Below, in pieces: positions 4,784 to 59,915 of a stretch of 64,000 bases of DNA. This DNA is from Christensenellaceae bacterium. Lineage in GTDB: Bacteria; Bacillota; Clostridia; Christensenellales; UBA1242. The number at the start of each line of letters is the position of its first letter. Within the stretch, counting starts at the first letter, position 1. Both the position numbers and the translations under genes were made by a program. The DNA is taken from positions 436,065 through 500,064 of the forward strand of contig JAISKJ010000003.1 in the NCBI GenBank assembly GCA_031260975.1, given 5' to 3'. A model generated the notes under the pieces. That model was not told the DNA's origin. It saw nothing but the letters and a program-made list of their open reading frames with translations, and did no database searches.

Positions 4784-4799
4784 AAAAAGCATTGTAGGT

Positions 4800-4817
4800 T
4801 TGCATAATACTATGCAA
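4800..4817. repeat. palindromic repeat copy TTGCATAATACTATGCAA (perfect)
   Basis: 7-4-7 inverted repeat, identical to copies at 23025, 32782 and 32815; followed by ACTTTTTGTCGAAT flank shared with the 58685 locus. Confidence 0.9.
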
Positions 4818-4920
4818 CTTTTTGTCGAATTTTTGATAACTTATAAAAAATGATTGTAAAATAAATTAAAATGGTGTATCATAATATCATTAGTGTATAA
4901 CACAAACAAGGAGCGTTGAT

Positions 4921-21699: not shown

Positions 21700-23010
21700 T
21701 TGACTGAAGAAAAACTAAACAAAACAGTTGGATTTGTGTCGCTTGGGTGTGACAAAAACAGGGTGGATACCGAAAGCATAATAACCACTCTTTATGCTAA
21801 TGGTTTTAAAACAACAGGAAACATAAATGATGCTCAGATAATAATAATAAACACCTGTGCTTTTTTAAAGTCTGCTCGTGATGAGGCTCTTGCCACTATG
21901 CTTGAAATGCTGGATTATAAAAAGACAAGTGCCGAAAAAATAATCGTGGCAGGCTGTCTTTGTCAAATGGATGATAAGCTCAAAGAAAAGTATCCTGAGA
22001 TTGACGCTTTTATTACGCCCAAGGATTATGGCGATATTGCAAAGATAATATACGGCCTTTATGGAAAGCCTTATAAAAACTCCAACGGTGTTCCGGATTA
22101 TCGCAAAATTACAACGCCCGGGCATTTTGCATATCTTAAGATTGCCGAAGGCTGTGACAATTCCTGTAGCTATTGCACAATTCCAAAAATTAAAGGACCC
22201 TATGTCAGCGAACCTATTGAAAGTCTTGTAAAAACGGCGACGATACTTGCTGAGCAGGGAGTGAAGGAGCTCATTTTGGTGGCGCAGGATACCACAAGGT
22301 ATGGGCTTGACTTATATAAAAAACAGACTATTGCTGAGCTTTTAAAAAAGCTTAGTGAAATTAATGGTATTGAATGGATACGCTTGCATTATTGTTATCC
22401 TGAGATGCTGACGCCGGCAATAATAAACGAAATTGCGACTAACCCCAAGGTTGTAAAGTATCTGGATATTCCGTTTCAGCATGTAAGCACAAAGGTACTT
22501 AAGTCCATGAACAGAGCAGGCAACGAGCAATCTGTAAAATTGATTGTTGAAATGCTGCGCTCTAAAATTCCGGAGATAGTGCTCAGGTCCACTTTTATTG
22601 TAGGCTTTCCGGGGGAAACTAATGAGGACTTTAAACTTCTTTTGAAGTTTTTGAAGGAATATAAATTGGATGCCGTCGGCTTCTTTGCATATTCAAATGA
22701 AGAGGGAACTCCATCTTTTGAATTTGATGGGCAACTTAGTCAAAAAGAAAAGCAAAAGAGGCTGGAGGCCGCTCAGAAGATTCAAAGCAAAATTGCCTTT
22801 GAGCTAAATCAAAAGTTTATAGGCGCCACCCAAAAGGTGTTGTGCGACGGATTTGATCAGGCGAATGGCCTATATTATGGGCGTAACTATGGTAGCTCAC
22901 CGGACGTTGATTTTGTTGTGTATATAAATGGGAAATGCAGTATAGGTGATTTTGTATCAGTAAAAATTACTGATGCAACAGACGAGTATTTGATAGGGGA
23001 AATTGCATAG
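21700..23010 (+). CDS. rimO: ribosomal protein S12 methylthiotransferase RimO
   Basis: 436 aa; UPF0004 N-domain, radical-SAM CDNSCSYC, TRAM C-domain; TTG start. Confidence 0.9.
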   Translation: MTEEKLNKTVGFVSLGCDKNRVDTESIITTLYANGFKTTGNINDAQIIIINTCAFLKSARDEALATMLEMLDYKKTSAEKIIVAGCLCQMDDKLKEKYPEIDAFITPKDYGDIAKIIYGLYGKPYKNSNGVPDYRKITTPGHFAYLKIAEGCDNSCSYCTIPKIKGPYVSEPIESLVKTATILAEQGVKELILVAQDTTRYGLDLYKKQTIAELLKKLSEINGIEWIRLHYCYPEMLTPAIINEIATNPKVVKYLDIPFQHVSTKVLKSMNRAGNEQSVKLIVEMLRSKIPEIVLRSTFIVGFPGETNEDFKLLLKFLKEYKLDAVGFFAYSNEEGTPSFEFDGQLSQKEKQKRLEAAQKIQSKIAFELNQKFIGATQKVLCDGFDQANGLYYGRNYGSSPDVDFVVYINGKCSIGDFVSVKITDATDEYLIGEIA

Positions 23011-23042
23011 TATTATGCAATAGTTTGCATAATACTATGCAA
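23003..23042. repeat. two perfect palindromic repeat copies in opposite orientation (TTGCATAGTATTATGCAA tagt TTGCATAATACTATGCAA)
   Basis: 23003-23020 and 23025-23042; first copy contains the rimO stop codon. Confidence 0.92.
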
Positions 23043-23069
23043 ACTTTAGTCACACAAAGGAGAGATATA

Positions 23070-29021: not shown

Positions 29022-29113
29022 GGGCATTTTGTCACAAAAAGCAGCAGGCTTTTTGTGACGGCACAAACACAGTTTGTGCCGTGGGCGCCCAAATATGGGC
29101 GCGCAAAATGCCC
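29022..29113 (+). other. structured intergenic element E1: three hairpins closed by a 10-bp outer stem
   Basis: Outer GGGCATTTTG/CAAAATGCCC (29022-31/29104-13); H1 29032-58 (11 bp), H2 29059-81 (10 bp), H3 29085-102 (7 bp). Confidence 0.7.
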
Positions 29114-29134
29114 ATACCTAAAAGGAGAAATGAT

Positions 29135-31714
29135 ATGGCACTTTCACCAATGATGCAACAGTATATGGAGATAAAACAAAACTATAAGGATTGCTTGGTA
29201 TTTTGTAGGCTCGGAGATTTTTATGAGCTGTTTTTTGACGATGCTTTGATAGCCTCAAAAGAGTTGGAGCTGACTCTCACGGGGCGAAACTGCGGCCTTG
29301 AAGAAAAGGCTCCCATGTGCGGTGTTCCTTATCACGCTGCCGAAGGGTATATAGCCAAACTTATTGAAAAGGGCCATAAAGTAGCAATTCTTGAGCAGCT
29401 CAGCGAGCCCGCTCCAGGCAGGCTTGTTGACAGACAGGTGGTAAGGGTGATTACTGCAGGCACGGTGACCGATGCCGGCATGCTTGATGACAAAAAGAAT
29501 AATTATATTGCGAGTATATATTTAGGTGACAAGGGCGCGGGAATTGCTTATGCCGATGTTGCAACGGGTGAATTTTGCGTAAATTCCTATCAGGAAGAAT
29601 TTTTGACAAACCTCAATGACACTCTTACGCGCATAAGACCTGCTGAAATAATATGCTCAAAACGGGTGCTTGAACAAATTGCCGAGATTCCTTGCGTGAA
29701 GGCTAACATAATGCCTCGGTTTGAAGAATATCCCGAAGTTTTTTTTGACTACAAAAACGCAACCGAAATAATAAAGCGCCAGCTTAAGATTGCTACGCTC
29801 ACAGGTTTTGATTTTGCCAAGCTTGAATATGCAATTTGCGCCAGCGGAGCGCTTATAAATTATATATTAGAAACTCAAAAACGAGACCTTAATCACATAA
29901 ACCGCATTATATGCGAAAAGAATGATTCTTATCTATATCTCGATCCGGCTACAACTCGCAATCTTGAACTTGTTGAAACAATCAGGGAGCAAAAGAAAAA
30001 GGGCTCATTGCTGGGGCTTTTGGATAATACCAAAACCAATATGGGAGCAAGGCTTCTGCGCACATGGATACTTCAGCCTTTGCGTGACCCAGAGCAAATC
30101 AATCGCAGACTTGAGGCTGAGGAAGAACTTATTGGCGAGCATATTTTGTTTAATGACATAACGGCGAGTCTTTCAAAAGTTTCGGATATCAGCAGGATTG
30201 CTGGCAAAATATCCTTTAATACCGTTATGCCGCGCGATTTGATTTTGCTCAAAAATTCGATTAAAGAAGCAATGGAGCTTAGTGTACTTGTAAAAAATCT
30301 TAAGAGTGAGACTTTAAATGGGCTTATTTCGGATTTTTATAAACTTAAAGAAGTTTTTGAAGAGATTGAAAAGGCTATTGATGAGGAACCACCTTTGGTG
30401 CTTACCAACGGAGGTTATATAAAGAAGGGATTTAGCGGTGACCTTGACAATCTTCGTGCCACAACAACTGACGCTCAGCAATGGCTTGCGGCACTTGAGG
30501 CAACCGAGCGTGAGCAAACGGGTATCAAAAACATTAAGGTTGGATATACGCGTGTGTTTGGATATTACTTAGAGGTTCCCAAGTCTCAGCAGGATCAGGT
30601 GCCGTATAGATATCAACGCAAGCAAACGGTGGTAGGAGCTGAGCGATATGTCACCGAAGAACTCAAACAGATTGAAGAAAAAATAATGAACAGCGAAGAG
30701 CTTTCACTCAAGCTTGAACAGCAGTTATACAGCGAGCTTAAAGAGTTTTTAAAAACCGCTGTAACAGCTCTTCAAAAAACGGCAGGAGACATTGCTATGC
30801 TTGACTGTATATGTGCACTTGCTGAAACTGCAAAGACACGCGGCTTTATAAAGCCCGTTATAAACGGCGGCATAAAGGCAATCAATATAACAGATGGCAG
30901 GCATCCCGTGGTTGAAGCGTTGCTTAAAGATGAGCAGTTTGTTCCTAATGACTGCTATCTTGACTGTGATAAAAACAGAACTATGATAATTACCGGTCCT
31001 AATATGGCCGGCAAAAGTACCTATATGAGGCAGGTGGCACTCATTGTTCTGCTTGCTCACATGGGCAGTTTTGTTCCGGCAAAATCTGCTGAGATTAGCC
31101 TTACTGACCGAATTTTTACTAGGATTGGCGCCAGCGATGATCTGGCATATGGGCAGAGTACGTTTATGGTGGAGATGGTTGAGGTTTCAAACATTTTAAA
31201 CAATGCAACCAAAAACAGTCTGCTTGTTTTGGATGAGGTTGGCCGAGGTACTTCCACTTTTGACGGGCTCAGTATTGCGTGGGCGGTAATTGAACATGTA
31301 ACCAAAAACATAAAAGCCAAAACACTTTTTGCCACGCACTATCACGAGCTTACTGAACTTGAAGGGCAGCTGGAGGGAACGAATAATTACCGCGTGGCTA
31401 TTCAGGAGTTTAACAACAGCATAATTTTCCTTCACAAAATTGTAAGAGGAGGCACCAGCCGAAGCTTTGGAATTGAAGTGGCGTCCCTTGCCGGCATAGG
31501 TTCAAATATAATAGGGCGGGCTAAGCAGATTTTGCATACCCTTGAGCAAAATGACCTTGAGGGTAGCAGTAAGCTTGTAACACTTGAAAAATCCAAAGAA
31601 CCAAAGGGGGAACTAACAGGCAAGCTGAAAAACCTTGATATGAATACTGTTACTCCTTTGGTGGCGTTTGACATTTTAAAGGAACTAAGCGATAAAGCTA
31701 AAAGGAGTGACTAA
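29135..31714 (+). CDS. mutS: DNA mismatch repair protein MutS
   Basis: MALSPMMQQYMEIK start with AAGGAG SD; GPNMAGKST Walker A; ORF-track start 29081 lies inside element E1. Confidence 0.97.
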   Translation: MALSPMMQQYMEIKQNYKDCLVFCRLGDFYELFFDDALIASKELELTLTGRNCGLEEKAPMCGVPYHAAEGYIAKLIEKGHKVAILEQLSEPAPGRLVDRQVVRVITAGTVTDAGMLDDKKNNYIASIYLGDKGAGIAYADVATGEFCVNSYQEEFLTNLNDTLTRIRPAEIICSKRVLEQIAEIPCVKANIMPRFEEYPEVFFDYKNATEIIKRQLKIATLTGFDFAKLEYAICASGALINYILETQKRDLNHINRIICEKNDSYLYLDPATTRNLELVETIREQKKKGSLLGLLDNTKTNMGARLLRTWILQPLRDPEQINRRLEAEEELIGEHILFNDITASLSKVSDISRIAGKISFNTVMPRDLILLKNSIKEAMELSVLVKNLKSETLNGLISDFYKLKEVFEEIEKAIDEEPPLVLTNGGYIKKGFSGDLDNLRATTTDAQQWLAALEATEREQTGIKNIKVGYTRVFGYYLEVPKSQQDQVPYRYQRKQTVVGAERYVTEELKQIEEKIMNSEELSLKLEQQLYSELKEFLKTAVTALQKTAGDIAMLDCICALAETAKTRGFIKPVINGGIKAINITDGRHPVVEALLKDEQFVPNDCYLDCDKNRTMIITGPNMAGKSTYMRQVALIVLLAHMGSFVPAKSAEISLTDRIFTRIGASDDLAYGQSTFMVEMVEVSNILNNATKNSLLVLDEVGRGTSTFDGLSIAWAVIEHVTKNIKAKTLFATHYHELTELEGQLEGTNNYRVAIQEFNNSIIFLHKIVRGGTSRSFGIEVASLAGIGSNIIGRAKQILHTLEQNDLEGSSKLVTLEKSKEPKGELTGKLKNLDMNTVTPLVAFDILKELSDKAKRSD

Positions 31715-33558
31715 TGAAAATAAACATATTAGACAGTAGCATATACAATCGAATTGCAGCGGGTGAAGTTGTTGAACGTCCTCATTCGATTGTCAAGGAG
31801 CTTGTTGAAAATAGCGTTGATTCGGGGGCTGACAGTATAATAATAGAAGTTGTGGGCGGCGGTATGCGCTCTGTGAAAGTGACTGACAACGGCAGTGGAA
31901 TTGACTTTGATGACCTGACGGCCGCATTTTTGCCGCATGCAACCAGCAAAATCAAAACAACCGACGACCTGAATTCAATCGCTACGCTGGGTTTTAGAGG
32001 TGAAGCACTTGCCAGCATCGGCTCGGTAAGTGAAATTATGTTGAGCTCCAAAACTAAAGGAGCCACTACCGGCGGTGAGGTTGAAGTAAGAGGCGGAACC
32101 ATTTCTAAACCCCATCCTAAGGGGTGCCCCGAAGGGACGCATGTTGTGGTGAATAACTTATTTTTTAATACTCCGGCCCGAGCCAAGTTTTTAAAGTCAG
32201 CCAAAACTGAAGAAAGTTATATCACCAATCTGGTTGAGCGCACAATCTTAGCCCATCCGAATATCAGTTTTAAGTATATTGTCGACGGCAAAATTGTATA
32301 TCAGACAACGGGCAAAGGCCTTGAAGAGGCGATTTATGTGATTTATGGCAAGGAAACAACGGGAAACTTAATCAGTGTAGAATATAAAAATTCTAGCCTA
32401 ACCATATCCGGTTTTGTGGGCCGACCGACTTATACTAAGCCTAATCGTACTTATCAGACGCTGGTCATAAACGGCAGGTATGTTGTTGACAGTCTTGTTT
32501 CAACGTCGGTTTTCAATGCTTTTTCGAACTATATGATGAAGGGCAGGTTCCCGTTTTTTGTTCTTTTTATAAATATGCCCTATGAGGATGTTGATGTAAA
32601 TGTTCATCCAAACAAGCTGGCTGTAAGATTTGTAAACTCCAATGGTGTGTATGTTGCGGTAAGCAATGCTGTCAGCGGCGCGTTGCTTAACGCCAACAAT
32701 ATTGTTGACGCTGTGACAACTGCTGAAAACGAGCCGATTGTGCCGATGCCAAAGGTGACGGGCAGGAGTTTTGGGGAGAGTTTGCATAATACTATGCAAA
32801 CCTTGGATGAAAAATTGCATAATACTATGCAAACAATTGACACAAAGCCCGCAGTTTCAAGTCCGATACTGCCAAATATTCCTATTACGCCTGTGGCAAC
32901 GCTAAAGGATGATGGTGGAATATATTATCAGACACTTCAGAATTATGTCAAGGCAGCTGCTCAGCCTGAAGTTTCACTTGCCGAAGGAGTTGAGGATTTT
33001 AAGATAATCGGCACAGTATTTACCACCTACATAATTGTGGAGCACAAAGGTGAAGCATATTTTATTGACCAGCACGCAGCGCACGAGCGGCTTTTGTTTG
33101 ACAAATTTTCGGCCGAATTTGAAAAGAAACAGGTTAATATCCAACAGCTGTTTGTGCCGTATGTGTTGCGGATTAATAGTGTTGAGGATGTATTTTTAAA
33201 GGAACACCTTAATGATTTTGGTGAGCTGGGCTTTGAGGTTTCGGAGTTTGGCAATCTTTCATACAAGGTTTCAAGTGTGCCGCTTAGCCTCAGTCAAATA
33301 GACCTGAGTGCATATTTTGATGACAGTCTTAAAAACCTTAACAAGCTTGGCAGCAGCGTTGAAGTCAGGCACTTTTTGGCCACAAAGGCATGCAAGGCAG
33401 CGGTCAAAGCCGGGCATGATTTAAATGGCACTGAAATTGCAACGCTGCTTAAAGAAATCAGCAAATCGGGAACAACCTTGCTTTGTCCGCACGGTAGGCC
33501 TGTTTGCGTAAGGCTTAAAAAAACCGACGTTGACAAATGGTTTAAGAGGATTGTATGA
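31714..33558 (+). CDS. mutL: DNA mismatch repair protein MutL
   Basis: 614 aa; GHKL ATPase motifs (ELVENSVDSGA, DNGSGI), C-terminal dimerisation domain (FIDQHAAHER). Confidence 0.95.
   Translation: MKINILDSSIYNRIAAGEVVERPHSIVKELVENSVDSGADSIIIEVVGGGMRSVKVTDNGSGIDFDDLTAAFLPHATSKIKTTDDLNSIATLGFRGEALASIGSVSEIMLSSKTKGATTGGEVEVRGGTISKPHPKGCPEGTHVVVNNLFFNTPARAKFLKSAKTEESYITNLVERTILAHPNISFKYIVDGKIVYQTTGKGLEEAIYVIYGKETTGNLISVEYKNSSLTISGFVGRPTYTKPNRTYQTLVINGRYVVDSLVSTSVFNAFSNYMMKGRFPFFVLFINMPYEDVDVNVHPNKLAVRFVNSNGVYVAVSNAVSGALLNANNIVDAVTTAENEPIVPMPKVTGRSFGESLHNTMQTLDEKLHNTMQTIDTKPAVSSPILPNIPITPVATLKDDGGIYYQTLQNYVKAAAQPEVSLAEGVEDFKIIGTVFTTYIIVEHKGEAYFIDQHAAHERLLFDKFSAEFEKKQVNIQQLFVPYVLRINSVEDVFLKEHLNDFGELGFEVSEFGNLSYKVSSVPLSLSQIDLSAYFDDSLKNLNKLGSSVEVRHFLATKACKAAVKAGHDLNGTEIATLLKEISKSGTTLLCPHGRPVCVRLKKTDVDKWFKRIV
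32782..32832. repeat. two perfect direct copies of the palindromic repeat, in frame inside mutL
   Basis: TTGCATAATACTATGCAAAC at 32782-32801 and 32815-32834, period 33 nt, translated LHNTMQT twice. Confidence 0.92.
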
Positions 33559-34469
33559 AAAAGCCTAAAATTTTAGTGATAACCGGGCCTACGGGCAGCG
33601 GAAAGACGGATATAGCCATTGAGTGCGCTAAGCAATTTAACGGCGAAATTGTCTCTGCCGATTCGATGCAGATTTATAAGGATATGGATATCGGAACGGG
33701 TAAAGTAGCCGAAAAACAAGGTGTGCCGCATTATATGCTTGACATAATAAACCCTGACCAAGGCTTTAGTGTCAAGCAATATAAGTATATGGCCCAAAGC
33801 TTTATAGACGATATTTTGGCAAGGAATAAGGTTCCTATAATTGTGGGCGGCACCGGTTTTTATATTTCGGCGTTGATTTTTAATATGAGTTTTGGTAACA
33901 CAGGAGGCCCGACTGAAGTTCGTGGAAAATATAGAAAACTTTATGAGGAACACGGCAGCGAGTATTTATATGATATGTTGAAGCGTGTTGACAGTAAGTC
34001 GGCCGAAGCAATTGATAAGAACAATATCAAAAAAATAATCCGCGCACTTGAAATTTTTGAGGTGACGGGAAAGCCCAAGAGTGAAATCAACGACCCCGAG
34101 CCTCAGTATGATTTTGCGCTGGCGGTGCTAAATCCGCCCAGAGAAAAGTTGTATCAAAATATCAACCGCAGATTTGATGATATGATAAGGCTTGGCCTTT
34201 TTGAAGAAATAAAGCGGGTAGTCAAACAGTATAATCTGACCCAGGATTGTCAAAGTATGCAGGCTATAGGCTACAGGGAATTTTTGCCTTATCTAAACGA
34301 CCAAGATGCGCTGGAACAACAAGTCAGTTTGGCTGCCCAACACAGCAGAAATTTTGCAAAACGGCAAATAACCTATTTTAAAGGCTTTAAAACGGCTGTA
34401 TGGATTGACCCAATACTTGAAAAAAACAAAATATTTGACTATTTCAAAGACTTTTTATCTAAAAAATAA
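33555..34469 (+). CDS. miaA: tRNA dimethylallyltransferase MiaA
   Basis: 304 aa; P-loop GPTGSGKT, SADSMQIYK motif; overlaps mutL stop. Confidence 0.94.
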   Translation: MKKPKILVITGPTGSGKTDIAIECAKQFNGEIVSADSMQIYKDMDIGTGKVAEKQGVPHYMLDIINPDQGFSVKQYKYMAQSFIDDILARNKVPIIVGGTGFYISALIFNMSFGNTGGPTEVRGKYRKLYEEHGSEYLYDMLKRVDSKSAEAIDKNNIKKIIRALEIFEVTGKPKSEINDPEPQYDFALAVLNPPREKLYQNINRRFDDMIRLGLFEEIKRVVKQYNLTQDCQSMQAIGYREFLPYLNDQDALEQQVSLAAQHSRNFAKRQITYFKGFKTAVWIDPILEKNKIFDYFKDFLSKK

Positions 34470-35720: not shown

Positions 35721-36314
35721 TTACAAAAATCGTATAATACCCACAACCCGTCCCAAAATTTTGACATCAAAAAAATATTGCGGAGCATATTTGTTGTTGT
35801 AGGCTTTTAACATTATATTTCCGTCCTGCCTGAAAAACCGTCTAAAAATCGGTTCATTGTTTATTACACATAAAATAATATCGCCGTTGTCGGCGTAAGT
35901 TTGTTTTTTTATTATAGCCAAGTCCCCCTTAATAATTCCGATACCTGTCATGCTGTCGCTGTCAACGCTGATTGCAAACAAATCTCCGTTAAAAAGATTG
36001 GCCGATACCTTAAAGCTTTGATTATAATAATCAAGAGACAGAGGCTTTTTAATGGTTATTTTATGGATAGTGCAAAATTGTTCGTTCAGGCTTTGTGAAT
36101 AGTCCGGTATAATTTCTATGGCACGGTTTTTATTGGTGCCTTTTCTGATTTTACCTCTTTCTTCAAGTTTTGTCAGGTAATAGAATATAGTGGAAGTTGA
36201 TTTAACATTCATTTCTTGCATAAGCTCGCGCACGGTAGGAGGATATCCATGCTCGCTAAGATGAATTTTAAGAATACGAAGGAGTTTATTTAGGGTTTCT
36301 TCTATTTTTAGCAT
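35721..36314 (-). CDS. lexA: LexA repressor (S24 peptidase)
   Basis: 197 aa; N-terminal wHTH (GYPPTVRELM), S24 domain with DSDSM serine and downstream Lys. Confidence 0.87.
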   Translation of the reverse strand: MLKIEETLNKLLRILKIHLSEHGYPPTVRELMQEMNVKSTSTIFYYLTKLEERGKIRKGTNKNRAIEIIPDYSQSLNEQFCTIHKITIKKPLSLDYYNQSFKVSANLFNGDLFAISVDSDSMTGIGIIKGDLAIIKKQTYADNGDIILCVINNEPIFRRFFRQDGNIMLKAYNNKYAPQYFFDVKILGRVVGIIRFL

Positions 36315-36324
36315 AGATTTTCTC

Positions 36325-37362
36325 CTAATTATCCCGCAGTTTCACCTTATTTGCAGCGGATTTTCGGATATCCTCACTTATGGCGGCGTAATGTTTTCGT
36401 GTGGTGTTTACGTCTTTATGCCCCAAAACATCGGCCACCATATAAATATCGCCTGTTTCACGATATAAATTTGTGCCGTATGTACTTCTTAGCTTGTGGG
36501 GTGTAATTTTTTTGAGAGGAGTGGATACCGAACTATATTTTTTTACTAATTTTTCAACAGCTCTAACGCCGATTCTTTCGTTTCGAAGCGATAGAAATAG
36601 TGCATTGTCGTCGGTTTTTTTGTTAAGCTTGCGTTTTTCAAAATATTCTCTTAAGGCATCAGCCACTTCATCCGAAAAGTATAATATTGCCTGATTTCCG
36701 CCTTTTCGCATAATTCTGAAACTATTTGCATTAAAGTCGATATCATCCAAATTTAAACCCACAAGCTCGCTTATACGAATACCTGTTCCTAAAAAAAGCG
36801 TTAAAATTGCTAAATCTCGTGTTCTGGTATGCTTATTAAATTCAAGTTGCATATGGCTGAATTTGATAGGGGCTTCGGTTTGGTCCAAAAGCTTTACCAC
36901 CTCGTCAACCTCAAGGCGGATAATTTCTTTAGTGTGAATTTTTGGCATTTCTATTTTTGTTGCAACATTGGCGTCCAGCTTATCTTTGTTAAAAAAATAT
37001 TTAAAAAGACTGCGCACTGCTGCCAACTTGCGTGCCTTTGCCTTGTCGTTATTCTGAATTTTTTTGCCGTTATGCTCATAAAAACTCAGATATGATAAAA
37101 ACTTTTCAATATTTGAAGAGGTGACTGCATTTAGGTGCTTAAGTTCGAGCTCGGTAATCCGAAAGTTGTCGAATTTGGGAAGTTTTTTTACTAAAAAGTC
37201 AAAAAAAATGCCCAGATCCCTCGCATAGTTTATTCGAGTAAGAGGGGTGGTCCGGCTTTCAATACCTATGAAAAAGTCTTCGCAAAATTCGGGAAGCTCA
37301 CCCATGATGTTGTCTAGAGCTTGCGTATTTTTTTCGTTGCGTTCGACAAAATAATTACTCAC
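36325..37362 (-). CDS. tyrosine site-specific recombinase, XerC/XerD-like
   Basis: 345 aa; SAM-like N-domain, catalytic R..HKLR..LGHKDVNTTRKHY; GTG start; co-oriented 10 nt upstream of lexA. Confidence 0.85.
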   Translation of the reverse strand: MSNYFVERNEKNTQALDNIMGELPEFCEDFFIGIESRTTPLTRINYARDLGIFFDFLVKKLPKFDNFRITELELKHLNAVTSSNIEKFLSYLSFYEHNGKKIQNNDKAKARKLAAVRSLFKYFFNKDKLDANVATKIEMPKIHTKEIIRLEVDEVVKLLDQTEAPIKFSHMQLEFNKHTRTRDLAILTLFLGTGIRISELVGLNLDDIDFNANSFRIMRKGGNQAILYFSDEVADALREYFEKRKLNKKTDDNALFLSLRNERIGVRAVEKLVKKYSSVSTPLKKITPHKLRSTYGTNLYRETGDIYMVADVLGHKDVNTTRKHYAAISEDIRKSAANKVKLRDN

Positions 37363-37578: not shown

Positions 37579-37596
37579 TTGCATAATGCTGTGCAA
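37579..37596. repeat. palindromic repeat copy, 2 mismatches (TTGCATAATGCTGTGCAA)
   Basis: Starts about 6 nt after the serS -10 box, at the predicted transcript 5' end. Confidence 0.8.
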
Positions 37597-37611
37597 ACTT
37601 TTGGAGGAAAA

Positions 37612-39036: not shown

Positions 39037-39939
39037 TTGAAAAAACAAAGAATTGAACAATTTGCAACAGAAGTTAATGGCGATACTGCCAAAGAAAATT
39101 ATAAAATTGCACTTAATGTAATCATAGAGGCGCTTGAGGGGCTAACCGGTAAGGTGTCTACACTGACGCCCGAGGAAGTGCGTGTTTTTCCGATGGGTGA
39201 GCTCACCAACGGCACCTTTGTTGACACAAACGATGAAATTGAAATAGCTCTTGTCACCAGCAATCCTCAAATGGCGTTTACAAATTCCGCCTACATAAGA
39301 CTTATGTCTGAGATTAAAAAACAGAAAGACCGCGACGCAGTCAGTTCAGACAACACTACACATCAAATCATACAGCTTTTGTTTGATGAATTTATTAAAT
39401 TGTTTTCGGCTGACACTACAATCATTATAACTCAACAAGGAATAAAAATATTATCTAACAAGGAGCTTGGCTTTAAAATTATGTTACGCCTCGGCACGTA
39501 TAATGCCTATGACACAAATTTTGTGCTGTCACTGTGGAATCCTGTGCGAAAAACAACTGAAAATCTTGATATTTTCGGCTATGCTGAAGCTATGAAAAAG
39601 AAAGACGATGATACAGACGGCAACTTTAACAAAATTGTAAGAATTTTTAAAAACTTCCGTAAAGCTGTTGTGGCCAATAAATGGTTCGGCAGTTCATTTG
39701 CAAACAAATATCTGGTTGAGATGGTAGTATACAACATACCAAACTCATTGCTTAAAGGCAGTGATGTATATAAGGTTTATGTCAAAAGTATAAATTATTT
39801 ACTGAATTGTCCGCTGAGTAGTTTTAAATCTTTTAACGGCGGGCAGCTTAGTAGTTTTCCGATAGCAGGCGCAGATCAATATCACATAAAAACTTTCCTG
39901 AGCAGCTGCAGCAGATTGCTGGCGCTCAAGGATGTATAA
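39037..39939 (+). CDS. hypothetical protein, possibly a divergent Pol-beta-fold nucleotidyltransferase (CD-NTase/SMODS-like layout)
   Basis: 300 aa, TTG start with AAAAGGAG SD; MGELTNGTFVDTNDEIEIALV resembles hG[GS]x9-13DhDh with GE and EIE substitutions; later FNKIVRIFKNFRK...YLVEMVVYNIP helices. Confidence 0.35.
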   Translation: MKKQRIEQFATEVNGDTAKENYKIALNVIIEALEGLTGKVSTLTPEEVRVFPMGELTNGTFVDTNDEIEIALVTSNPQMAFTNSAYIRLMSEIKKQKDRDAVSSDNTTHQIIQLLFDEFIKLFSADTTIIITQQGIKILSNKELGFKIMLRLGTYNAYDTNFVLSLWNPVRKTTENLDIFGYAEAMKKKDDDTDGNFNKIVRIFKNFRKAVVANKWFGSSFANKYLVEMVVYNIPNSLLKGSDVYKVYVKSINYLLNCPLSSFKSFNGGQLSSFPIAGADQYHIKTFLSSCSRLLALKDV

Positions 39940-40186: not shown

Positions 40187-40235
40187 AATATTCGACAAAA
40201 AAGCGGTGTCTTTCACCGCCCTTTTGTCGAATATT
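40187..40235. other. nested long hairpin (14-bp outer stem AATATTCGACAAAA, inner GCGGTG-TCTTT-CACCGC)
   Basis: Read directly; T-run follows on the minus strand, so possibly the terminator of the DUF45 gene. Confidence 0.65.
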
Positions 40236-40321: not shown

Positions 40322-41035
40322 TCACCTATAAATCCCAAGCAGAAAGTTGTTGCGTTTGAGTGTGAGACGTGCCTGCTTCCAGCCTGGCATGAGGCGCTCA
40401 AGCACTGCATAAAACTTTTGCGAATGGTTCATCTCATATGTGTGGCTAAGCTCATGCAGAATTACATAATCAATGACATTGTGCGGCAGCATTACAAGCC
40501 GCCAATTTAATTTGATATTCTTATTTGTATCACAACTACCCCATTTTGCTTTAAAGTCGCCGATTTTCAGGCTTTTATAACCTATCCCGTGCGTCTTCCC
40601 AAGCGTCTCAAGCCGTTTGGTAAGTATTTCCGCCCCTAGTGCCCTTTGCCATTTCAATAAGTGTTTTATGTATGAGCCTTCTATATAATATTTATTTGGC
40701 ACGATTACCTGATTTTTTTCAATTGTTATTGTCTTTGTGTCGCCGGCGGTGATGTCATAAAGCGTTCCGCACACTGAAATTTGTTTAAAGTTGATTATGG
40801 TTTGATGGTCAATATTCACCTGTGCTATCTGCTGCATCTTTTTTTCAATCCATTTGGCTTTTTGATTTATGATTTCACCAAGCCGTTGAGTATTCATTTT
40901 TATGGGTGCAAAAACCACCAGCTTTCCGTGGGTGTCTATGGTTATCTTAACGCTTCTGCGACGCTCACGCAGAATGTCGGCGATATCTATTAAGTTTTGC
41001 ATAGTATTATTCAAACTTTGCATAGTATTATTCAA
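40322..41035 (-). CDS. YgjP-like/DUF45 family metal-dependent hydrolase (HExxH)
   Basis: HELSHTYEMNHSQKFY zinc motif, RRSVKITIDTHGKLVVFAP N-region; start ambiguous (TTG 41035, ATG 41023 or ATG 41002), all inside repeat copies. Confidence 0.8.
   Translation of the reverse strand: MNNTMQSLNNTMQNLIDIADILRERRRSVKITIDTHGKLVVFAPIKMNTQRLGEIINQKAKWIEKKMQQIAQVNIDHQTIINFKQISVCGTLYDITAGDTKTITIEKNQVIVPNKYYIEGSYIKHLLKWQRALGAEILTKRLETLGKTHGIGYKSLKIGDFKAKWGSCDTNKNIKLNWRLVMLPHNVIDYVILHELSHTYEMNHSQKFYAVLERLMPGWKQARLTLKRNNFLLGIYR
40997..41035. repeat. two direct palindromic repeat copies, 1 mismatch each (TTGCATAGTATTATTCAA), period 21 nt
   Basis: 40997-41014 and 41018-41035; encode NNTMQ twice on the minus strand. 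Confidence 0.85.
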
Positions 41036-41084
41036 AAGCCTCTACTTAGTCCATTATAGCATAAATTCAGACAAAAAGCATATT

Positions 41085-41096
41085 TTGCATAGTATT
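41085..41096. repeat. half copy of the palindromic repeat (TTGCATAGTATT)
   Basis: Ends 3 nt before the -35 box of the PadR-like gene promoter. Confidence 0.6.
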
Positions 41097-41099
41097 TTA

Positions 41100-41128
41100 T
41101 TGACTTTTTTGCCTTTTTTTTGTATAAT
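41100..41128 (+). promoter_or_regulatory. consensus promoter of PadR-like gene (TTGACT-17-TATAAT, TG-extended)
   Basis: -35 at 41100-05, -10 at 41123-28; SD AAGAGGG then ATG 41147. Confidence 0.7.
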
Positions 41129-41146
41129 TTTTTAAGAGGGATTATT

Positions 41147-42913
41147 ATGGCAGAAGAAACAAAGGCAAACCGCGGCACCATTATACAAATAGTGCTGAAC
41201 AGCCTACTTGACGGTGATAAATATGGATATGAAATCTGCAAAGATATTGAGCAGAAAAGCGGCGGTAAGCTTGTGCTGAAGCAGCCCAGCCTTTATAGTA
41301 GCCTCAGGCGTATGAGCGAAAAAGGCGTGATATCTTCTTATTGGGATGAGAGCGATCAGGGCGGCAGAAGGCATTATTACAGCATTACTGAGGGCGGACG
41401 CGAGCAATATGAACGCAATAAAAGCAATTGGGCGAATTATAACGCTCTTGTTTCGTCGCTTAACACCGAAGAACTTAAGGCGTTGAGCGCTGAGCCGCAA
41501 AAAACTCAGGAAGAACAAAAAAGCGACAGTATAAAAGTGGTTAAGCAGGAAAATCTGTTTGCCTTCACAAAGCCAATTCCAAAAGTAGATGCAGAAGAAT
41601 CTGCACCGGCTTCTTTTGTGCAATATGATTTATTTAATGTTGCTTCTAAGTTTGTAGCCAGCGATGCGGCTGAGATAAAGACTGAAACAAATTTATATCA
41701 AAACAAGTTCAGCGACAGTGCTGACCCCAAAAGCACCATCCAGCCGCTCTCTCCTATTTTTAAGTCTTATGAAAGTGTAAATACACGCGACCTTGAAAAC
41801 CTGCAGAAGAATTATAATTCATATGCCAACAGTGAAGACACAGAGGATGTTGATATTTCAGGTTTGTCTTTGAGTGATTTTGGTCTGGATGATACACCGG
41901 CAAATGATGAGCCTGAACAGGACGCAGAACTAAAAGAAATCACTCATCACGAGGTTAAGGAAATTGAGTTTCATGAGCATATGGAGCCTGAAGCTCAGGA
42001 AAAAGACCCCTATGCTCCGGGAGATCTCAGCAAGTTTAGTGAGGTTTTAAGCGACGAACAAAGAGTTGAAACCGGTTTTAGCGAACAATATTCTTCAAGA
42101 TATGAATATAATCCGGCTACATATACGGTTAAGCCCAAAGAGCGCGTTAGAAGCGAAGAGCCTGATATAGATTACAAAAATATATTAGGCGGGCTTTATG
42201 CCGGTGGGGGCCGCGGTGATCCCTATGAAAAAAAACGCTTTGATGAGCAGCAATATCTCAAACAGTATGAGGGTGAAAGCGAGAACGCAGTGCAGCCTAT
42301 ACCTGAAGAGGCTCCCCTTCCTGCATCCGAAACTCCGCAGCTTGTCAATATCAGCCCGCAGTATGACGATTATAATGTCAGCGCAAACAGTTTTGAAATG
42401 TTTAAGAGCGACCTTGCTATGGATGGCATAAGGGTCAAAAAGTATGTTAAGCACAAAAATATAATCCGTACGGGCGACAATTTTATCAAATACAGCAAGC
42501 TCAAGTTGGTTCAGGGCTGGCTGTTGTGGCTCATTATGGCGGCGGAGATTGTGGCTGCTTACTTTATTATGAAATCGGTAAACCTGCTGCCGGCAGCTCA
42601 AGAAAACCTTTACTTTATAGCCATTGGCGTGATATTTGCCTACCCACTCTTTTATAGTCTGGCTTATATGATAAATCCCGATAGAAAAATCGCTTCAACA
42701 TTTAGGGTGAACATAAGCTTGTTTAACAGGCTGCTTGCTGTGATGATTACCGTAGTGTTTGTATTTTCAATAAGTTTATTTATGGGTATGACTGCCCTCA
42801 ACCAGCTGGATTTTCTTAATTATTGGCTGCTTCCCATAATTCTTAGCACAAACTATATTGTGGCAGGGCTTCTGTATTACATTTTACTTCGAAGCAAAAG
42901 ATATAATGTATGA
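41147..42913 (+). CDS. PadR-family wHTH protein with long acidic linker and C-terminal multi-TM domain
   Basis: N-terminal LLDGDKYGYEICKDIE...LKQPSLYSSLRRMSEKGVISSYW PadR fold; several hydrophobic helices in the last 130 aa. Confidence 0.75.
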   Translation: MAEETKANRGTIIQIVLNSLLDGDKYGYEICKDIEQKSGGKLVLKQPSLYSSLRRMSEKGVISSYWDESDQGGRRHYYSITEGGREQYERNKSNWANYNALVSSLNTEELKALSAEPQKTQEEQKSDSIKVVKQENLFAFTKPIPKVDAEESAPASFVQYDLFNVASKFVASDAAEIKTETNLYQNKFSDSADPKSTIQPLSPIFKSYESVNTRDLENLQKNYNSYANSEDTEDVDISGLSLSDFGLDDTPANDEPEQDAELKEITHHEVKEIEFHEHMEPEAQEKDPYAPGDLSKFSEVLSDEQRVETGFSEQYSSRYEYNPATYTVKPKERVRSEEPDIDYKNILGGLYAGGGRGDPYEKKRFDEQQYLKQYEGESENAVQPIPEEAPLPASETPQLVNISPQYDDYNVSANSFEMFKSDLAMDGIRVKKYVKHKNIIRTGDNFIKYSKLKLVQGWLLWLIMAAEIVAAYFIMKSVNLLPAAQENLYFIAIGVIFAYPLFYSLAYMINPDRKIASTFRVNISLFNRLLAVMITVVFVFSISLFMGMTALNQLDFLNYWLLPIILSTNYIVAGLLYYILLRSKRYNV

Positions 42914-50751: not shown

Positions 50752-50759
50752 ATAATTTA

Positions 50760-50788: not shown

Positions 50789-50825
50789 ATAAAACCGCTG
50801 CTAGGTTTTCGGCGGTTTTATTTTG

Positions 50826-58696: not shown

Positions 58697-58746
58697 TTGC
58701 ATAATCTTTGCATAGTATTATGCAAAAGTTTGCACAGTACTATGCA
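58697..58746. repeat. palindromic repeat cluster: half copy plus one perfect plus one 2-mismatch copy
   Basis: TTGCATAAT 58697-705; TTGCATAGTATTATGCAA 58708-25; TTGCACAGTACTATGCAA 58729-46; preceded by ATTCGACAAAAA 58685-96. Confidence 0.9.
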
Positions 58747-58748
58747 AT

Positions 58749-59915
58749 CTAATGCCCATCTTCGATTATCATGCTCTCAGCTCCAGCTATAGCTTCGTCT
58801 ATGAGTGCTTCTATATCCAAAAATTTTTCGTTCAATTCTATGCGTGTTGTCTTTGGTTTAGTTACCGGTGACTTTGGCAAAAATACGCTGCAGCAGTCCT
58901 CATAAGGCAAAATTGAGGTTTCATAGGTTCCGATATTTTTTGAAATTGCGATGATATCCGTTTTGTCAAAGCCTATTAGCGGGCGCAGAACGGGCAATGT
59001 TTCAACAACCCCATTGCTGGCTGTCAAACCCTCAATCGTCTGACTTGCCACTTGACCCAGGCTTTCACCTGTGATGATTGCACTGCAATGATTTTGTTTG
59101 CCCAGCCGTTCGGCAATTCTAAACATAAAGCGCCGCGTAAAGGTCACCATATATTCACTGTCGCAGTTTTTATGGATTTCCTCCTGAATTTTAGTAAACG
59201 GCACTATAATTAGCTTAATAGAACCGGTATACGGTGTCATAAGTTTTGACAGCGTTATTACCTTTTGTTTAGCCTGTTCGCTTGTGTAGGGGTAACTGTG
59301 AAAATGTATAGCCATAATATTAAGGCCGCGTTTTGCCATCATAAAACCTGCCACAGGACTGTCTATTCCGCCGCTCAGCATAAGCATACCTTGTCCCGCC
59401 GTGCCCACAGGCATACCGCCATAGCATGGGAGCTTTTGGTGATAAACAAAGGTTGTGCCGTTCTCTCTTATGTCTATATGCACAGTGCTCTTTGGGTTGT
59501 GAACATCCACCTTGGCATGGGGGTTATTTTCAAGAATTATGTCCCCCATTTTGGCCGAAAATTCATATGATTTTATAGGGAAGTTTTTGTCGGCCCGCCG
59601 TGTTTCGACCTTAAAGGTTTGAGTAGTAATCTTTATTGTTTTTATTATATCAATTATTGCCGACTCTGCTGTCTTTATACTAAGAGCAACGCTAAGGCTT
59701 ACAATTCCGAATATCTTTTTAATACGCTCTATCAAATGCTCACGAAGTGAGGGGTCAAATCTTTCAACAATAATTCTGGCTCCTCCGCGGCTTACGGCGG
59801 CCCCATATGGTTTTACTGCCCGCTTTATGTTGTTTAGAAGAGTGCGTTCAAAAAAATTGAAGTTTTTACCCTTCAAAAAAATCTCCCCATATCGCAGTAG
59901 TAATACCTCTTGCAT
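58749..59915 (-). CDS. thiI: tRNA 4-thiouridine(8) synthase ThiI
   Basis: 388 aa; THUMP domain, PP-loop SGGIDSPVA. Confidence 0.92.
   Translation of the reverse strand: MQEVLLLRYGEIFLKGKNFNFFERTLLNNIKRAVKPYGAAVSRGGARIIVERFDPSLREHLIERIKKIFGIVSLSVALSIKTAESAIIDIIKTIKITTQTFKVETRRADKNFPIKSYEFSAKMGDIILENNPHAKVDVHNPKSTVHIDIRENGTTFVYHQKLPCYGGMPVGTAGQGMLMLSGGIDSPVAGFMMAKRGLNIMAIHFHSYPYTSEQAKQKVITLSKLMTPYTGSIKLIIVPFTKIQEEIHKNCDSEYMVTFTRRFMFRIAERLGKQNHCSAIITGESLGQVASQTIEGLTASNGVVETLPVLRPLIGFDKTDIIAISKNIGTYETSILPYEDCCSVFLPKSPVTKPKTTRIELNEKFLDIEALIDEAIAGAESMIIEDGH

What the first reader, a model, noticed from the sequence alone, without database searches (positions are those of the whole stretch)
32782..32834. 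Two perfect repeat copies inserted in frame in the mutL linker
TTGCATAATACTATGCAAAC occurs twice, identical at 20 of 20 positions and 33 nt apart (11 codons), translating to LHNTMQT-LDEK-LHNTMQT. The site lies between the N-terminal ATPase and the C-terminal dimerisation domain; that MutL linker is known to be variable and disordered. The coding copies are more perfect than several intergenic ones. This argues for recent spread by insertion or recombination, or for selection at the DNA or RNA level rather than on the peptide. A hairpin-forming repeat inside a mismatch-repair gene could also be a slippage or deletion hotspot.
Basis: partly seen in the sequence, partly recalled or inferred. Interest (0 to 1): 0.75.

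Follow-up and report, generated by a model that had tools for sequence, protein, structure and literature searches.

The report
Ancient palindromic DNA repeat inside mutL
The two identical 20-base copies in the mismatch-repair gene mutL are units of an old, genome-wide palindromic repeat family that is preserved as DNA rather than as peptide, and that turns up repeatedly in the flexible MutL linker of distantly related gut Clostridia; they are not a recent insertion.

Summary
TTGCATAATACTATGCAAAC occurs at 32782-32801 and 32815-32834, in frame (LHNTMQT twice) in the MutL linker.

Each copy is a unit of an 18-22 bp palindrome family (ideal TTGCATAGT|ACTATGCAA). The window has 10 units at 6 loci; all the others are intergenic.

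It is not recent. A relative with 84% MutL identity has both copies at the same place. Relatives at 54-62% have 2-3 copies. Other MutL lineages, one only 33% identical, carry the motif at other linker positions.

The constraint is on DNA. 54 of 56 synonymous choices equal the motif base (26 expected), and amino-acid changes keep the motif bases. Sequence is conserved, mainly the half-site ACTATGCAAAC; the hairpin is not.

Intergenic copies tend to lie just after stop codons, alone, as inverted dimers or in about 22-nt arrays. One supplies the rimO stop codon.

The best reading is a REP-like dispersed palindromic repeat (confidence 0.45). In-frame REPs in DNA-repair genes are a published precedent. 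The GTAG/CGTC tags of the known REP superfamilies are absent, and no partner enzyme was found.

Rivals are a DNA-uptake-sequence-like tag and a protein-binding site.

Unexplained: motif density in MutL linkers is about 200 times that in other coding DNA.

The parts
32780..32801 (+). Repeat unit 1 in mutL. It is a 22-nt palindrome, GTTTGCATA-ATAC-TATGCAAAC, and its 20-mer at 32782-32801 encodes LHNTMQT (residues 357-363).
32815..32834 (+). Repeat unit 2 in mutL. It is identical to unit 1 at 20 of 20 positions and encodes LHNTMQT (residues 368-374).
   Evidence: As RNA, units 1 and 2 can pair with each other (-18.6 kcal/mol, z = -4.0).
31714..33558 (+). The mutL gene (614 aa). The linker between DNA_mis_repair (208-324) and MutL_C (432-570) corresponds to about nt 32686-33006.
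4798..4819 (.). Single family unit, 15 nt after the ruvB stop codon. It is followed by TTTTTG and lies upstream of the yajC promoter.
23001..23044 (.). Inverted dimer of two units with a 22-nt period, between rimO and cinA-recA. The first unit supplies the rimO stop codon, TAG at 23008-23010. The dimer folds into an 18-bp hairpin (-25.6 kcal/mol, z = -8.2). It is conserved in the relative with 84% MutL identity.
37579..37598 (+). Single unit, TTGCATAATGCTGTGCAAAC, between the -10 box of a consensus promoter and the ribosome-binding site of serS. It lies in the divergent spacer shared with the xerD-like/lexA operon.
40995..41035 (-). Two units forming a perfect 21-nt tandem duplication at the 5' end of the YgjP-like gene. 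The ATG inside a unit is the likely start codon, as in L041.
41083..41096 (-). Lone half-site, AATACTATGCAAAA. It abuts the -35 box of the promoter of the membrane-anchored PadR-like gene. It is conserved in L041 and L042.
58697..58749 (.). Two and a half units starting 1 nt after the thiI stop codon and lying upstream of the ppa promoter. The array folds at -24.6 kcal/mol (z = -5.3).

Best explanation
The two 20-mers are an in-frame dimer of a dispersed, REP-like palindromic repeat family.

What the element is:
- The ideal unit is GTTTGCATAGT|ACTATGCAAAC. This lineage uses a variant with centre AATACT.
- The family is carried by a group of uncultured gut Clostridia related to Christensenellales.

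What is shown:
- Units are recognised and kept as nucleotide sequence.
- They lie mostly in intergenic DNA, often just 3' of a stop codon. They occur singly, as inverted dimers that can fold into 18-bp hairpins, or as short arrays with a period of about 22 nt.
- Their central bases are homogenised within a lineage.
- The mutL copies are old and are kept at the DNA level.

What is inferred:
- The intergenic copies work as transcribed 3'-end hairpins, in termination or protection of the transcript, as proposed for REPs.
- An unidentified sequence-specific protein or copying process keeps the family uniform.
- In mutL the dimer is carried in the only part of the protein that tolerates it, the disordered linker. 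The encoded LHNTMQT peptides are by-products.

What stays open:
- Why the MutL linker in particular acquires and keeps the motif. My preferred guess is a scar of past mutator episodes. A 22-nt unit inserted in mutL shifts the frame, the resulting mutator hitch-hikes with adaptive mutations, and the frame is later healed to a 21, 24 or 33-nt spacing. This is speculation.
For: Family and excess over chance:
- 16 matches against 0.02 expected; 10 units at 6 loci in 64 kb.

REP-like anatomy:
- The unit is an 18-22 bp palindrome.
- Inverted dimers at 23001-23044 and 58697-58749 fold at -25.6 and -24.6 kcal/mol (z = -8.2 and -5.3).
- A unit supplies the rimO stop codon in the window and in L036.
- In L039 the unit, flanked by A7 and T7 runs, occupies the place where relatives have an ordinary bidirectional terminator between the metC-like gene and lexA.
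- Across 40 classifiable intergenic clusters, half of the sites in unidirectional or convergent spacers start within 24 nt of the upstream stop. In unidirectional spacers they lie closer to the upstream stop (median 36 nt) than to the downstream start (82 nt).
- Array growth by unit duplication is visible at 40996-41036.

Age:
- The pair is at the same positions in L036-L038.
- There are 2-3 copies in L039, L040 and L041.
- There is a tandem pair in L181 and L184, whose MutL is 33% identical to the window's.
- There are single copies in L244-L246.

DNA-level constraint:
- 54 of 56 synonymous choices match the motif, against 26.3 expected. All 26 match when one copy is taken per lineage for 7 lineages (P about 1e-10).

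Published precedent (Di Nocera et al. 2013, PMC3733652):
- REPs lie close to the 3' ends of ORFs.
- They often occur as inverted dimers.
- They can supply stop codons.
- In-frame intragenic REPs lie mainly in DNA replication and repair genes, and these are sometimes the only coding copies in a genome.
Against: - In more distant lineages only one arm, AGTACTATGCAAAC, is conserved, both in mutL and in intergenic DNA.
- The second mutL unit of L036 has lost its left arm, and the fold there is not significant (z = -1.3).
- The window's own variant weakens the hairpin.
- Together these show that structure is not what is conserved, which fits a pure sequence tag better than a classical REP.
- Single units are weak hairpins (-6 to -7 kcal/mol, z about -1.5).
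- There is no GTAG or CGTC tag.
- No RAYT, other transposase or GIY-YIG gene was found. The search covered 148 ORFs next to motif sites and 43 of the roughly 55 window ORFs; the remaining window ORFs were judged only by reading their translations.
- The same motif occurs in contigs of 29-58% G+C, which is broader than usual for one REP family.
- The shares of spacer types (29 unidirectional, 6 convergent, 5 divergent) do not differ significantly from their shares of intergenic length.
- Tolerance alone does not explain an approximately 200-fold excess in MutL linkers over other coding DNA.
Confidence: 0.45

Rival explanations
1. The motif is a DNA-uptake-sequence-like self tag. The functional unit is the 14-mer AGTACTATGCAAAC. 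It would be recognised on double-stranded DNA by a competence or other DNA-handling protein and accumulated by biased uptake or gene conversion. Inverted pairs would double as terminators. Coding copies would accumulate in poorly conserved protein segments, with a bias to genome-maintenance genes.
For: - Lone, non-palindromic arms dominate in L040-L042 and L244-L246.
- Sequence is conserved, not structure.
- There are lineage 'dialects' with the same change at many loci: AATACT in the window against AGTACT elsewhere.
- Coding copies always use one frame and orientation, in a poorly conserved segment. This matches what Findlay and Redfield 2009 describe for uptake sequences (PMC2817400).
- Neighbouring or host genes include ruvB, cinA-recA, mutL, mutS, ligA and lexA. 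This recalls the reported bias of uptake sequences towards genome-maintenance genes (papers listed).
- Inverted pairs occur at gene ends.
Against: - Density is about one locus per 10 kb, that is 12 exact 9-mers in 64 kb. This is roughly five times lower than in Neisseria or Haemophilus; the Haemophilus figure of 1,471 copies in about 1.8 Mb comes.
- Tandem arrays with a 22-nt period are not a known feature of uptake sequences.
- From my own knowledge, sequence-specific uptake is unknown in Gram-positive bacteria.
- No competence genes were seen in the part of the window that was annotated, although only 64 kb is available.
Confidence: 0.2
2. The motif is a binding site for a conserved DNA-binding protein, either a global regulator or a nucleoid-associated or membrane-tethering protein. 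The mutL copies would then be a cis-regulatory site embedded in the only permissive part of the gene. One possible role is control of mutL or of the translationally overlapping miaA downstream. A candidate binder is the membrane-anchored PadR-like protein, whose promoter carries a conserved half-site.
For: - An 18-bp palindrome with conserved arms and a variable centre is typical of dimeric helix-turn-helix proteins.
- The sequence is invariant across 29-58% G+C.
- Position is conserved in mutL, in the rimO/cinA spacer, in the YgjP/PadR spacer (window, L041, L042, L195) and in the serS/xerD spacer (window, L236).
- A half-site lies 5 nt upstream of the -35 box of the PadR-like gene in three lineages.
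- A unit covers the transcription start region of serS.
- Spacings of 21-22 and 33 nt are close to whole helical turns.
Against: - Many sites are in convergent spacers or directly after stop codons, where no promoter is expected.
- Spacings of 13, 24, 26-28, 46 and 67-69 nt also occur, so there is no consistent helical phasing.
- Sites are near-perfect or absent rather than graded in strength.
- Neighbouring genes have no common function.
- Relatives that have the PadR-like gene in synteny lack the motif.
- It is not the LexA box. Canonical GAACAnATGTTT boxes precede lexA in L039-L041.
Confidence: 0.2
3. The peptide is what matters. [NS]TMQT would be a short linear motif of the MutL linker, for example a partner-binding site, and the resemblance to the intergenic repeat would be secondary.
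For: - The peptide xxTMQ recurs in many MutL linkers, always in the same frame.
- The better-kept arm is the one that encodes T-M-Q.
Against: - Synonymous positions are frozen.
- Amino-acid changes such as T to A or S keep the motif bases (ACT to GCT or TCT).
- The identical 14-18-mer is abundant in intergenic DNA of the same genomes.
- Most MutL relatives lack the peptide altogether.
Confidence: 0.03
4. This is the first reader's version: a recent insertion or recombination event of a mobile, MITE-like element into mutL in this genome.
For: - The two copies are 20 of 20 identical to each other and to the genome's commonest variant.
- A perfect tandem duplication of a unit exists elsewhere in the window.
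Against: - The pair is at the same position with the same 33-nt spacing in the 84% relative, where the copies have diverged, and in relatives at 54-58%.
- Identity ends at the edges of the motif, and there are no target-site duplications or terminal structures.
Confidence: 0.03

Closest known systems
REP elements (repetitive extragenic palindromes), including intragenic REPs (Di Nocera et al. 2013, PMC3733652)
   Same: - They are 20-40 bp palindromes in many dispersed copies.
- They lie mostly close to the 3' ends of ORFs.
- They are frequent as inverted dimers that fold into larger hairpins.
- They can supply stop codons.
- In-frame copies lie in flexible parts of proteins, mainly in DNA replication and repair genes, and are sometimes the only coding copies in a genome.
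   Different: - There is no GTAG or CGTC tag.
- No associated RAYT transposase was found.
- The paper's text never mentions Firmicutes or Clostridia.
- Here one arm alone is conserved in many lineages.
- The same sequence spans very divergent genomes.
- The mutL copies are maintained at the DNA level over a long time.
DNA uptake sequences (DUS of Neisseriaceae, USS of Pasteurellaceae)
   Same: - A short conserved core.
- Lineage dialects.
- Inverted pairs at gene ends.
- Coding copies in poorly conserved positions in a preferred frame.
- A reported bias to genome-maintenance genes.
   Different: - Density is about five times lower.
- Tandem arrays occur.
- The host is Gram-positive, and no uptake specificity or competence is known for it.
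Neisseria dRS3/NTS hairpin repeats and other Ssn-related motifs, cut as single-stranded DNA by GIY-YIG Ssn nucleases (Chenal et al. 2025, PMC11893778)
   Same: - They are palindromic hairpin repeats in hundreds of copies, clustered around genes.
- They are recognised sequence-specifically by a dedicated small protein.
   Different: - The sequences are unrelated: those motifs are G+C-rich stems.
- No GIY-YIG gene was found next to any site here.
Rickettsia palindromic elements (RPE). This comparison rests on my own knowledge plus a mention in PMC3733652.
   Same: They are palindromic repeats inserted in frame into protein-coding genes and translated.
   Different: - RPEs are much longer, about 100-150 bp.
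- They are found in many unrelated genes, not concentrated in one linker.
Hexanucleotide repeat hotspot in E. coli mutL (Shaver and Sniegowski 2003; recalled from memory, not checked here)
   Same: It is a short direct repeat inside mutL whose copy number can change.
   Different: - That repeat is a simple local tandem repeat inside a conserved motif, and its changes inactivate MutL.
- Here the units belong to a genome-wide family, lie in the linker, and slippage between them would stay in frame.

Membership tests
REP (repetitive extragenic palindrome) | A short (20-40 bp) imperfect palindrome able to form a stem-loop | tested here: met
   The unit is the 22-nt GTTTGCATA-NNNN-TATGCAAAC. Single units fold at -6 to -7 kcal/mol and dimers at about -25 kcal/mol.
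REP (repetitive extragenic palindrome) | Many dispersed copies, mainly extragenic | tested here: met
   There are 10 units at 6 loci in 64 kb, against 0.02 expected. In 172 kb from 9 lineages, about 18 hits lie in about 13 kb of intergenic DNA and 3 in about 155 kb of coding DNA outside mutL. The whole-genome copy number is not available.
REP (repetitive extragenic palindrome) | Position close to the 3' ends of ORFs in unidirectional or convergent spacers | tested here: inconclusive
   The median distance to the upstream stop is 24 nt, and units touch or supply stop codons. However, the shares of spacer types do not differ from their shares of intergenic length.
REP (repetitive extragenic palindrome) | Inverted dimers or clusters (BIME-like) | tested here: met
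   Examples are 23001-23044 and 58697-58749 in the window, and arrays of 4-7 units in L234 and L236.
REP superfamilies GTAG / CGTC | An unpaired GTAG or CGTC tag at one end | tested here: not met
   Flanks were read at all window copies. GTAG precedes only the copy at 4798, and there is no consistent tag.
REP (REPtron) | An associated RAYT (Y1 transposase) gene flanked by REPs | tested here: inconclusive
   There is no Y1_Tnp hit among the most frequent families of 148 neighbouring ORFs, nor among the window ORFs scanned. Complete genomes were not available.
DNA uptake sequences (DUS/USS) | A conserved 9-12 nt core at about one copy per kb, in both orientations | tested here: not met
   The core AGTACTATGCAAAC is conserved, but there are only 12 exact 9-mers in 64 kb, clustered at 6-7 loci.
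DNA uptake sequences (DUS/USS) | Preferential uptake of motif-bearing DNA by a competent cell | not testable with these tools
   This needs an experiment.
Ssn-related hairpin motifs (NTS/SRM) | An ssnA (GIY-YIG) gene flanked by the repeats, and the SRM consensus | tested here: not met
   The sequence is unrelated to CGTCATTCCCGCG...GCGGGAATC. No GIY-YIG gene is listed among the most frequent families of neighbouring ORFs.
LexA (SOS) box | A GAAC-N4-GTTC type palindrome upstream of lexA, recA and other SOS genes | tested here: not met
   The motif differs from this box. Canonical boxes precede lexA in L039-L041. There is no exact Cheo box in the window.
Known RNA families (Rfam) | A match to a curated covariance model | tested here: not met
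   Only one tRNA in the window reaches a gathering score.

The most novel reading that the evidence does not exclude
The 14-mer AGTACTATGCAAAC is a self-recognition tag of a group of Gram-positive gut anaerobes. It would be read by a dedicated protein, in a manner analogous to a DNA uptake sequence or to an Ssn-type system. It would be installed and kept in the MutL linker repeatedly and independently because its presence inside the mismatch-repair gene is itself selected. Two possible reasons are re-acquisition or repair of mutL after mutator episodes, or cis-control of mutL and miaA.
Probability: 0.15. Interest if true: 0.85.

Novelty: new variant of a known kind. Interest (0 to 1): 0.55.

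Why it matters
Dispersed palindromic repeats and uptake sequences have long been noted to sit unusually often in DNA replication and repair genes, and no explanation has been accepted.

This case is clean and deep in evolutionary time. One short motif recurs in the same frame and orientation in the MutL linker of lineages whose MutL is as little as 33% identical. Its synonymous sites are frozen, while the rest of the linker has diverged beyond alignment.

That makes the question testable in three ways:
- recode the motif synonymously;
- look for the protein that binds it;
- compare mutation rate and miaA expression with and without it.

It would also be the first such repeat family described for this group of gut Clostridia. 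If the motif turns out to be only a tolerated passenger, the finding is an ordinary new repeat family.

Tried and rejected
- Rfam scan of the window found only a tRNA.
- LexA/SOS box was rejected. Canonical boxes precede lexA in relatives, and the motif differs from them.
- A sigma-70 promoter formed by the units was rejected. Hexamer spacings do not fit, and no conserved promoter lies next to the mutL copies. The near-consensus antisense promoter at 32951-32924 is not conserved in L036 (sequences read).
- An intrinsic terminator as a general role was rejected. There is no consistent T-run after the units (logo), although some copies have one.
- The viral collection scan gave 81 contigs, 80 with a single match and one with two, consistent with chance.
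- The metagenome scan with the 18-mer gave mostly chance singletons from unrelated habitats. Real arrays were picked out by counting half-sites.
- A hit inside a TnpB (IS605-type) gene, L196, was judged a chance match within a conserved TnpB peptide.
- The PadR-like protein as binder remains only a lead. Relatives with the gene in synteny lack the motif.
- A search for a recurrent neighbouring gene (RAYT, GIY-YIG, integrase) among 148 flanking ORFs found none.
- Helical phasing of array spacings was mixed.
- A bias in spacer type was not significant.
- A literature search for the motif string found nothing relevant.
- The GTDB species set holds no close relative; the best MutL identity is 45%. 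Those loci lack the motif.
Full report
**1. The observation**

TTGCATAATACTATGCAAAC occurs at 32782-32801 and 32815-32834 on the + strand, 33 nt apart. Both copies lie in frame in ORF 31714..33558, a 614-aa MutL flanked by mutS (29081..31714) and miaA (33555..34469). They encode residues 357-363 and 368-374, which read LHNTMQT-LDEK-LHNTMQT.

Pfam puts the N-terminal DNA_mis_repair domain at 208-324 and MutL_C at 432-570, so both copies are in the linker. With up to three mismatches the 20-mer matches 16 times in the window, against 0.02 expected.

**2. What the unit is**

Each copy is a palindrome. The first reads GTTTGCATA-ATAC-TATGCAAAC. The window holds ten units at six loci:

| Position | Arrangement | Context |
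|---|---|---|
| 4798-4819 | single unit | 15 nt after the ruvB stop |
| 23001-23044 | inverted dimer, 22-nt period | rimO / cinA-recA spacer; the first unit supplies the rimO stop codon TAG |
| 32780-32834 | the mutL pair | MutL linker |
| 37579-37598 | single unit | between the -10 box and the ribosome-binding site of serS |
| 40995-41035, plus a half-site at 41083-41096 | tandem pair and a lone arm | YgjP-like / PadR-like divergent spacer |
| 58697-58749 | two and a half units | starts 1 nt after the thiI stop |

Comparison with relatives shows that the ideal site is the perfect 18-bp palindrome TTGCATAGT|ACTATGCAA, with A/T-rich extensions. In the window lineage the centre is AATACT, or its complement, in 8 of 10 units at 5 loci. 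Elsewhere it is mostly AGTACT. So the copies of one lineage evolve in concert. Rfam has no matching family.

**3. Age of the mutL copies**

The GTDB species set holds only distant relatives (MutL identity 45% or less; Christensenellales and other Clostridia MAGs from animal guts). These have neither the motif nor the peptide. The large protein collection holds closer relatives.

- In the 84% relative, three contigs from three sequencing runs carry the same two features as the window. One is a dimer in the rimO/cinA spacer that again supplies the stop codon. The other is two units 33 nt apart at the same place in mutL, there diverged to TTGCATAGTGCTATGCAA and TTGCCAGATACTATGCAA.
- Relatives at 54-62% identity (P0002, P0003, P0004, P0006, P0008) have two or three xxTMQ peptides at the corresponding place. 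In the three whose DNA I fetched, these are encoded by A[AG]TACTATGCAAA(C), with spacings of 21, 33+27 and 33+24 nt.
- A sister clade (P0005, P0007, P0009-P0025) lacks the motif in mutL but has it in intergenic DNA (L042).
- The metagenome scan used the bare 18-mer. It returned two contigs, L181 and L184 (46-48% G+C), in which the hit lies in a MutL linker as a tandem pair, LHSSMQ-G-LHSTMQ, directly after the N-terminal domain. That MutL is only 33% identical to the window's.
- Further lineages (P0026/28, P0027, P0056) have one copy at other linker positions, again encoded by the motif.
- On a neighbour-joining tree of 153 MutLs the carriers are patchy.

The feature is therefore old in the window's clade. 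Overall it was gained at least about three times, or else it is very old and was lost many times. 'Recent insertion' is refuted.

**4. DNA constraint or peptide constraint**

I looked at codons in or next to the units whose amino acid has synonymous alternatives. Across 17 units in 9 loci, 54 of 56 use the codon that matches the motif, against 26.3 expected from each mutL gene's own codon usage.

| Codon | Matches | Expected frequency |
|---|---|---|
| Thr ACT | 13 of 13 | about 0.27 |
| Ser AGT | 9 of 9 | about 0.25 |
| Leu TTG | 7 of 7 | 0.2-0.34 |

Taking one unit from each of seven lineages, all 26 choices match (P about 1e-10). Where the amino acid differs, the motif bases persist: ACT becomes GCT or TCT, and AAT becomes AGT. 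The same 14-18-mer is abundant in the intergenic DNA of these genomes.

**5. Sequence conservation or structure conservation**

- In the window, dimers can fold into long hairpins: 23001-23044 at -25.6 kcal/mol (z = -8.2), 58697-58749 at -24.6 (z = -5.3), and the mutL pair at -18.6 (z = -4.0).
- Single units are weak, at -6 to -7 kcal/mol (z about -1.5).
- In L036 the second mutL unit has lost its left arm, and the fold is not significant (z = -1.3).
- In L040-L042 and L244-L246 mostly the right arm alone, AGTACTATGCAAAC, is kept, both in mutL and in intergenic DNA.
- A few changes do look compensatory or wobble-like on the sense strand: 37579, 58730, and L039 5797 (TTGCAC...GTGCAA).

On balance the conserved object is a sequence, which implies recognition by a protein or a copying process. 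It is not a generic hairpin.

**6. Context of intergenic copies**

Metagenome contigs of 29-58% G+C carry arrays of up to 5-7 units. The boxes are conserved, the spacers vary, and the period is mostly 22 nt, with 13, 21, 24 and 26-28 nt also seen.

Forty clusters could be classified using crude ORF calls. Of these, 29 lie in unidirectional, 6 in convergent and 5 in divergent spacers. This is not significantly different from the shares of spacer length. However, half of the unidirectional and convergent sites start within 24 nt of the upstream stop. In unidirectional spacers they lie closer to the upstream stop (median 36 nt) than to the next start (82 nt).

In L039 the unit is flanked by A7 and T7. 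It occupies the place between the metC-like gene and lexA where other relatives have an ordinary bidirectional terminator.

Flanking genes have no common function. They include PNPase, ligA, mutS, purB, pgm, spoIIIA, serS/xerD and radical-SAM genes. No transposase, RAYT or GIY-YIG gene recurs. The window ORFs that were scanned encode none either.

**7. Explanations**

The anatomy in this window matches what Di Nocera et al. (2013, PMC3733652) describe for REPs:
- palindromic units of 20-40 bp;
- positions close to ORF 3' ends;
- inverted dimers that fold into larger structures;
- units that supply stop codons;
- in-frame intragenic copies that lie mainly in DNA replication and repair genes, and that are sometimes the only coding copies in a genome.

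I therefore read the family as REP-like, and the mutL pair as a 'REP-decorated' linker (confidence 0.45).

Membership in the known GTAG or CGTC superfamilies is not met, because there is no tag. A RAYT could not be looked for genome-wide.

The one-arm conservation, the dialects and the fixed frame fit a DNA-uptake-sequence-like tag about as well (0.2). The low density, the arrays and the Gram-positive host speak against it.

A protein-binding operator or nucleoid site (0.2) is favoured by positional conservation. It is also favoured by a half-site next to the -35 box of a membrane-anchored PadR-like gene in three lineages. It is disfavoured by the many sites at gene ends, by the lack of phasing, and by relatives that have the PadR-like gene but not the motif.

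A peptide-level function and a recent insertion are each at about 0.03.

**8. What remains unexplained**

I counted the extended motif in 172 kb from nine motif-bearing lineages.

| Region | Hits | Size |
|---|---|---|
| MutL linkers | 13 | 3.3 kb |
| Other coding DNA | about 3 genuine | about 155 kb |
| Intergenic DNA | about 18 | about 13 kb |

Several of these loci were chosen because their MutL has the peptide, so the contrast is inflated, but the clade-wide pattern stands. Other long disordered linkers in the window, in FtsK and in the PadR-like protein, have none.

Tolerance alone does not explain this. One possibility, which is speculation, is that a frameshifting 22-nt unit inserted in mutL creates a mutator that hitch-hikes with adaptive mutations. 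The frame would later be healed to a spacing of 21, 24 or 33 nt, and only the linker would tolerate the scar. The other possibilities are the genome-maintenance bias proposed for uptake sequences, and a cis-regulatory role for mutL or miaA.

**9. Verdict**

- The DNA-level reading is right.
- The 'recent' reading is wrong.
- The element is a new variant of a known kind: a REP-like or DUS-like dispersed repeat with in-frame copies in a repair gene.
- Its unusually deep and specific association with the MutL linker is the part worth following up.

Noticed in passing
window 4820-4833; 58676-58692; 40189-40233; 37342-37351: A second recurring motif, TTTTGTCGAA(T), contains the Spo0A-box-like TGTCGAA. 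It lies directly between the palindromic repeat and the -35 box of the yajC and ppa promoters. It also forms the arms of a long terminator-like hairpin at 40189-40233.
   Followed up: no
window 40996-41036: A perfect 21-nt x 2 tandem duplication of one repeat unit (TRF, 100% match). It shows that arrays in this genome grow by unit duplication.
   Followed up: partly
window 41120-42913: An unusual 597-aa PadR-family protein. It has an N-terminal winged helix, about 300 aa of acidic disordered linker, and a C-terminal segment with several hydrophobic helices, so it looks like a membrane-anchored regulator. It is transcribed divergently from a YgjP-like metallopeptidase gene, and the pair is conserved in relatives.
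   Followed up: partly
window 35721-37362 (- strand): lexA starts 10 nt after an xerD-like integrase gene, apparently as one operon. No canonical LexA box is found anywhere in the window, whereas relatives L039-L041 have GAACAnATGTTT upstream of lexA.
   Followed up: partly
window 32924-32951 (- strand): A near-consensus antisense promoter (TTGACA-16-GATAAT) lies inside mutL, about 90 nt downstream of the repeats and pointing towards them. It is not conserved in the 84% relative.
   Followed up: partly
L039 1-952 and 8700-13489: The 62% relative has a CRISPR array (36-nt repeat GTTTGAGAGTAGTGTAATTTAGGATATGTCTAATAC, 66-nt period) just upstream of the mutL region. It also has Microviridae-like prophage genes (Phage_F, Chlamy_scaf, a replication-initiator gene) near the xerD-like integrase.
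   Followed up: no
L008 14149-14176, 14534, 14592, 16599; L009 925, 953, 14182-14202: More distant relatives that lack the motif have a different abundant repeat, TTTTTACGCAAAGAT(G). It occurs as an inverted pair and as direct repeats 28 nt apart. Its core TACGCAAA differs by one base from TATGCAAA.
   Followed up: partly
L148 740-757; L232 7121-7153: In-frame copies of the same palindrome occur in other genes of metagenome contigs. One is in a NifS-like aminotransferase (…ALHSTMQTN…), where it splits the Pfam match in two. The other is in TruB (…STMHNVLHSTMQK…). TruB is also a recurrent host of REPs in the literature.
   Followed up: partly
window 31714-33558: The window's MutL is absent from the 5.8-billion-cluster protein collection, where the nearest is 84% identical. 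The GTDB species representatives reach only 45%. The source organism is therefore poorly represented in public data.
   Followed up: yes
window 6581-7951; 39037-39939: Two ORFs have no Pfam match in the window copy: a 456-aa ORF, and a 300-aa ORF. For the second, the apparent (syntenic) counterpart in relatives is annotated as CD_NTase_C.
   Followed up: no
window 49927-54005 (- strand): An NrtR-like regulator (NUDIX domain plus winged helix) lies next to nadE, a 528-aa ORF that was not scanned with Pfam and looks NAMPT-like only from reading its sequence, and a gene with a weak phosphoribosyltransferase-domain match. This looks like a probable NAD salvage regulon cluster.
   Followed up: no
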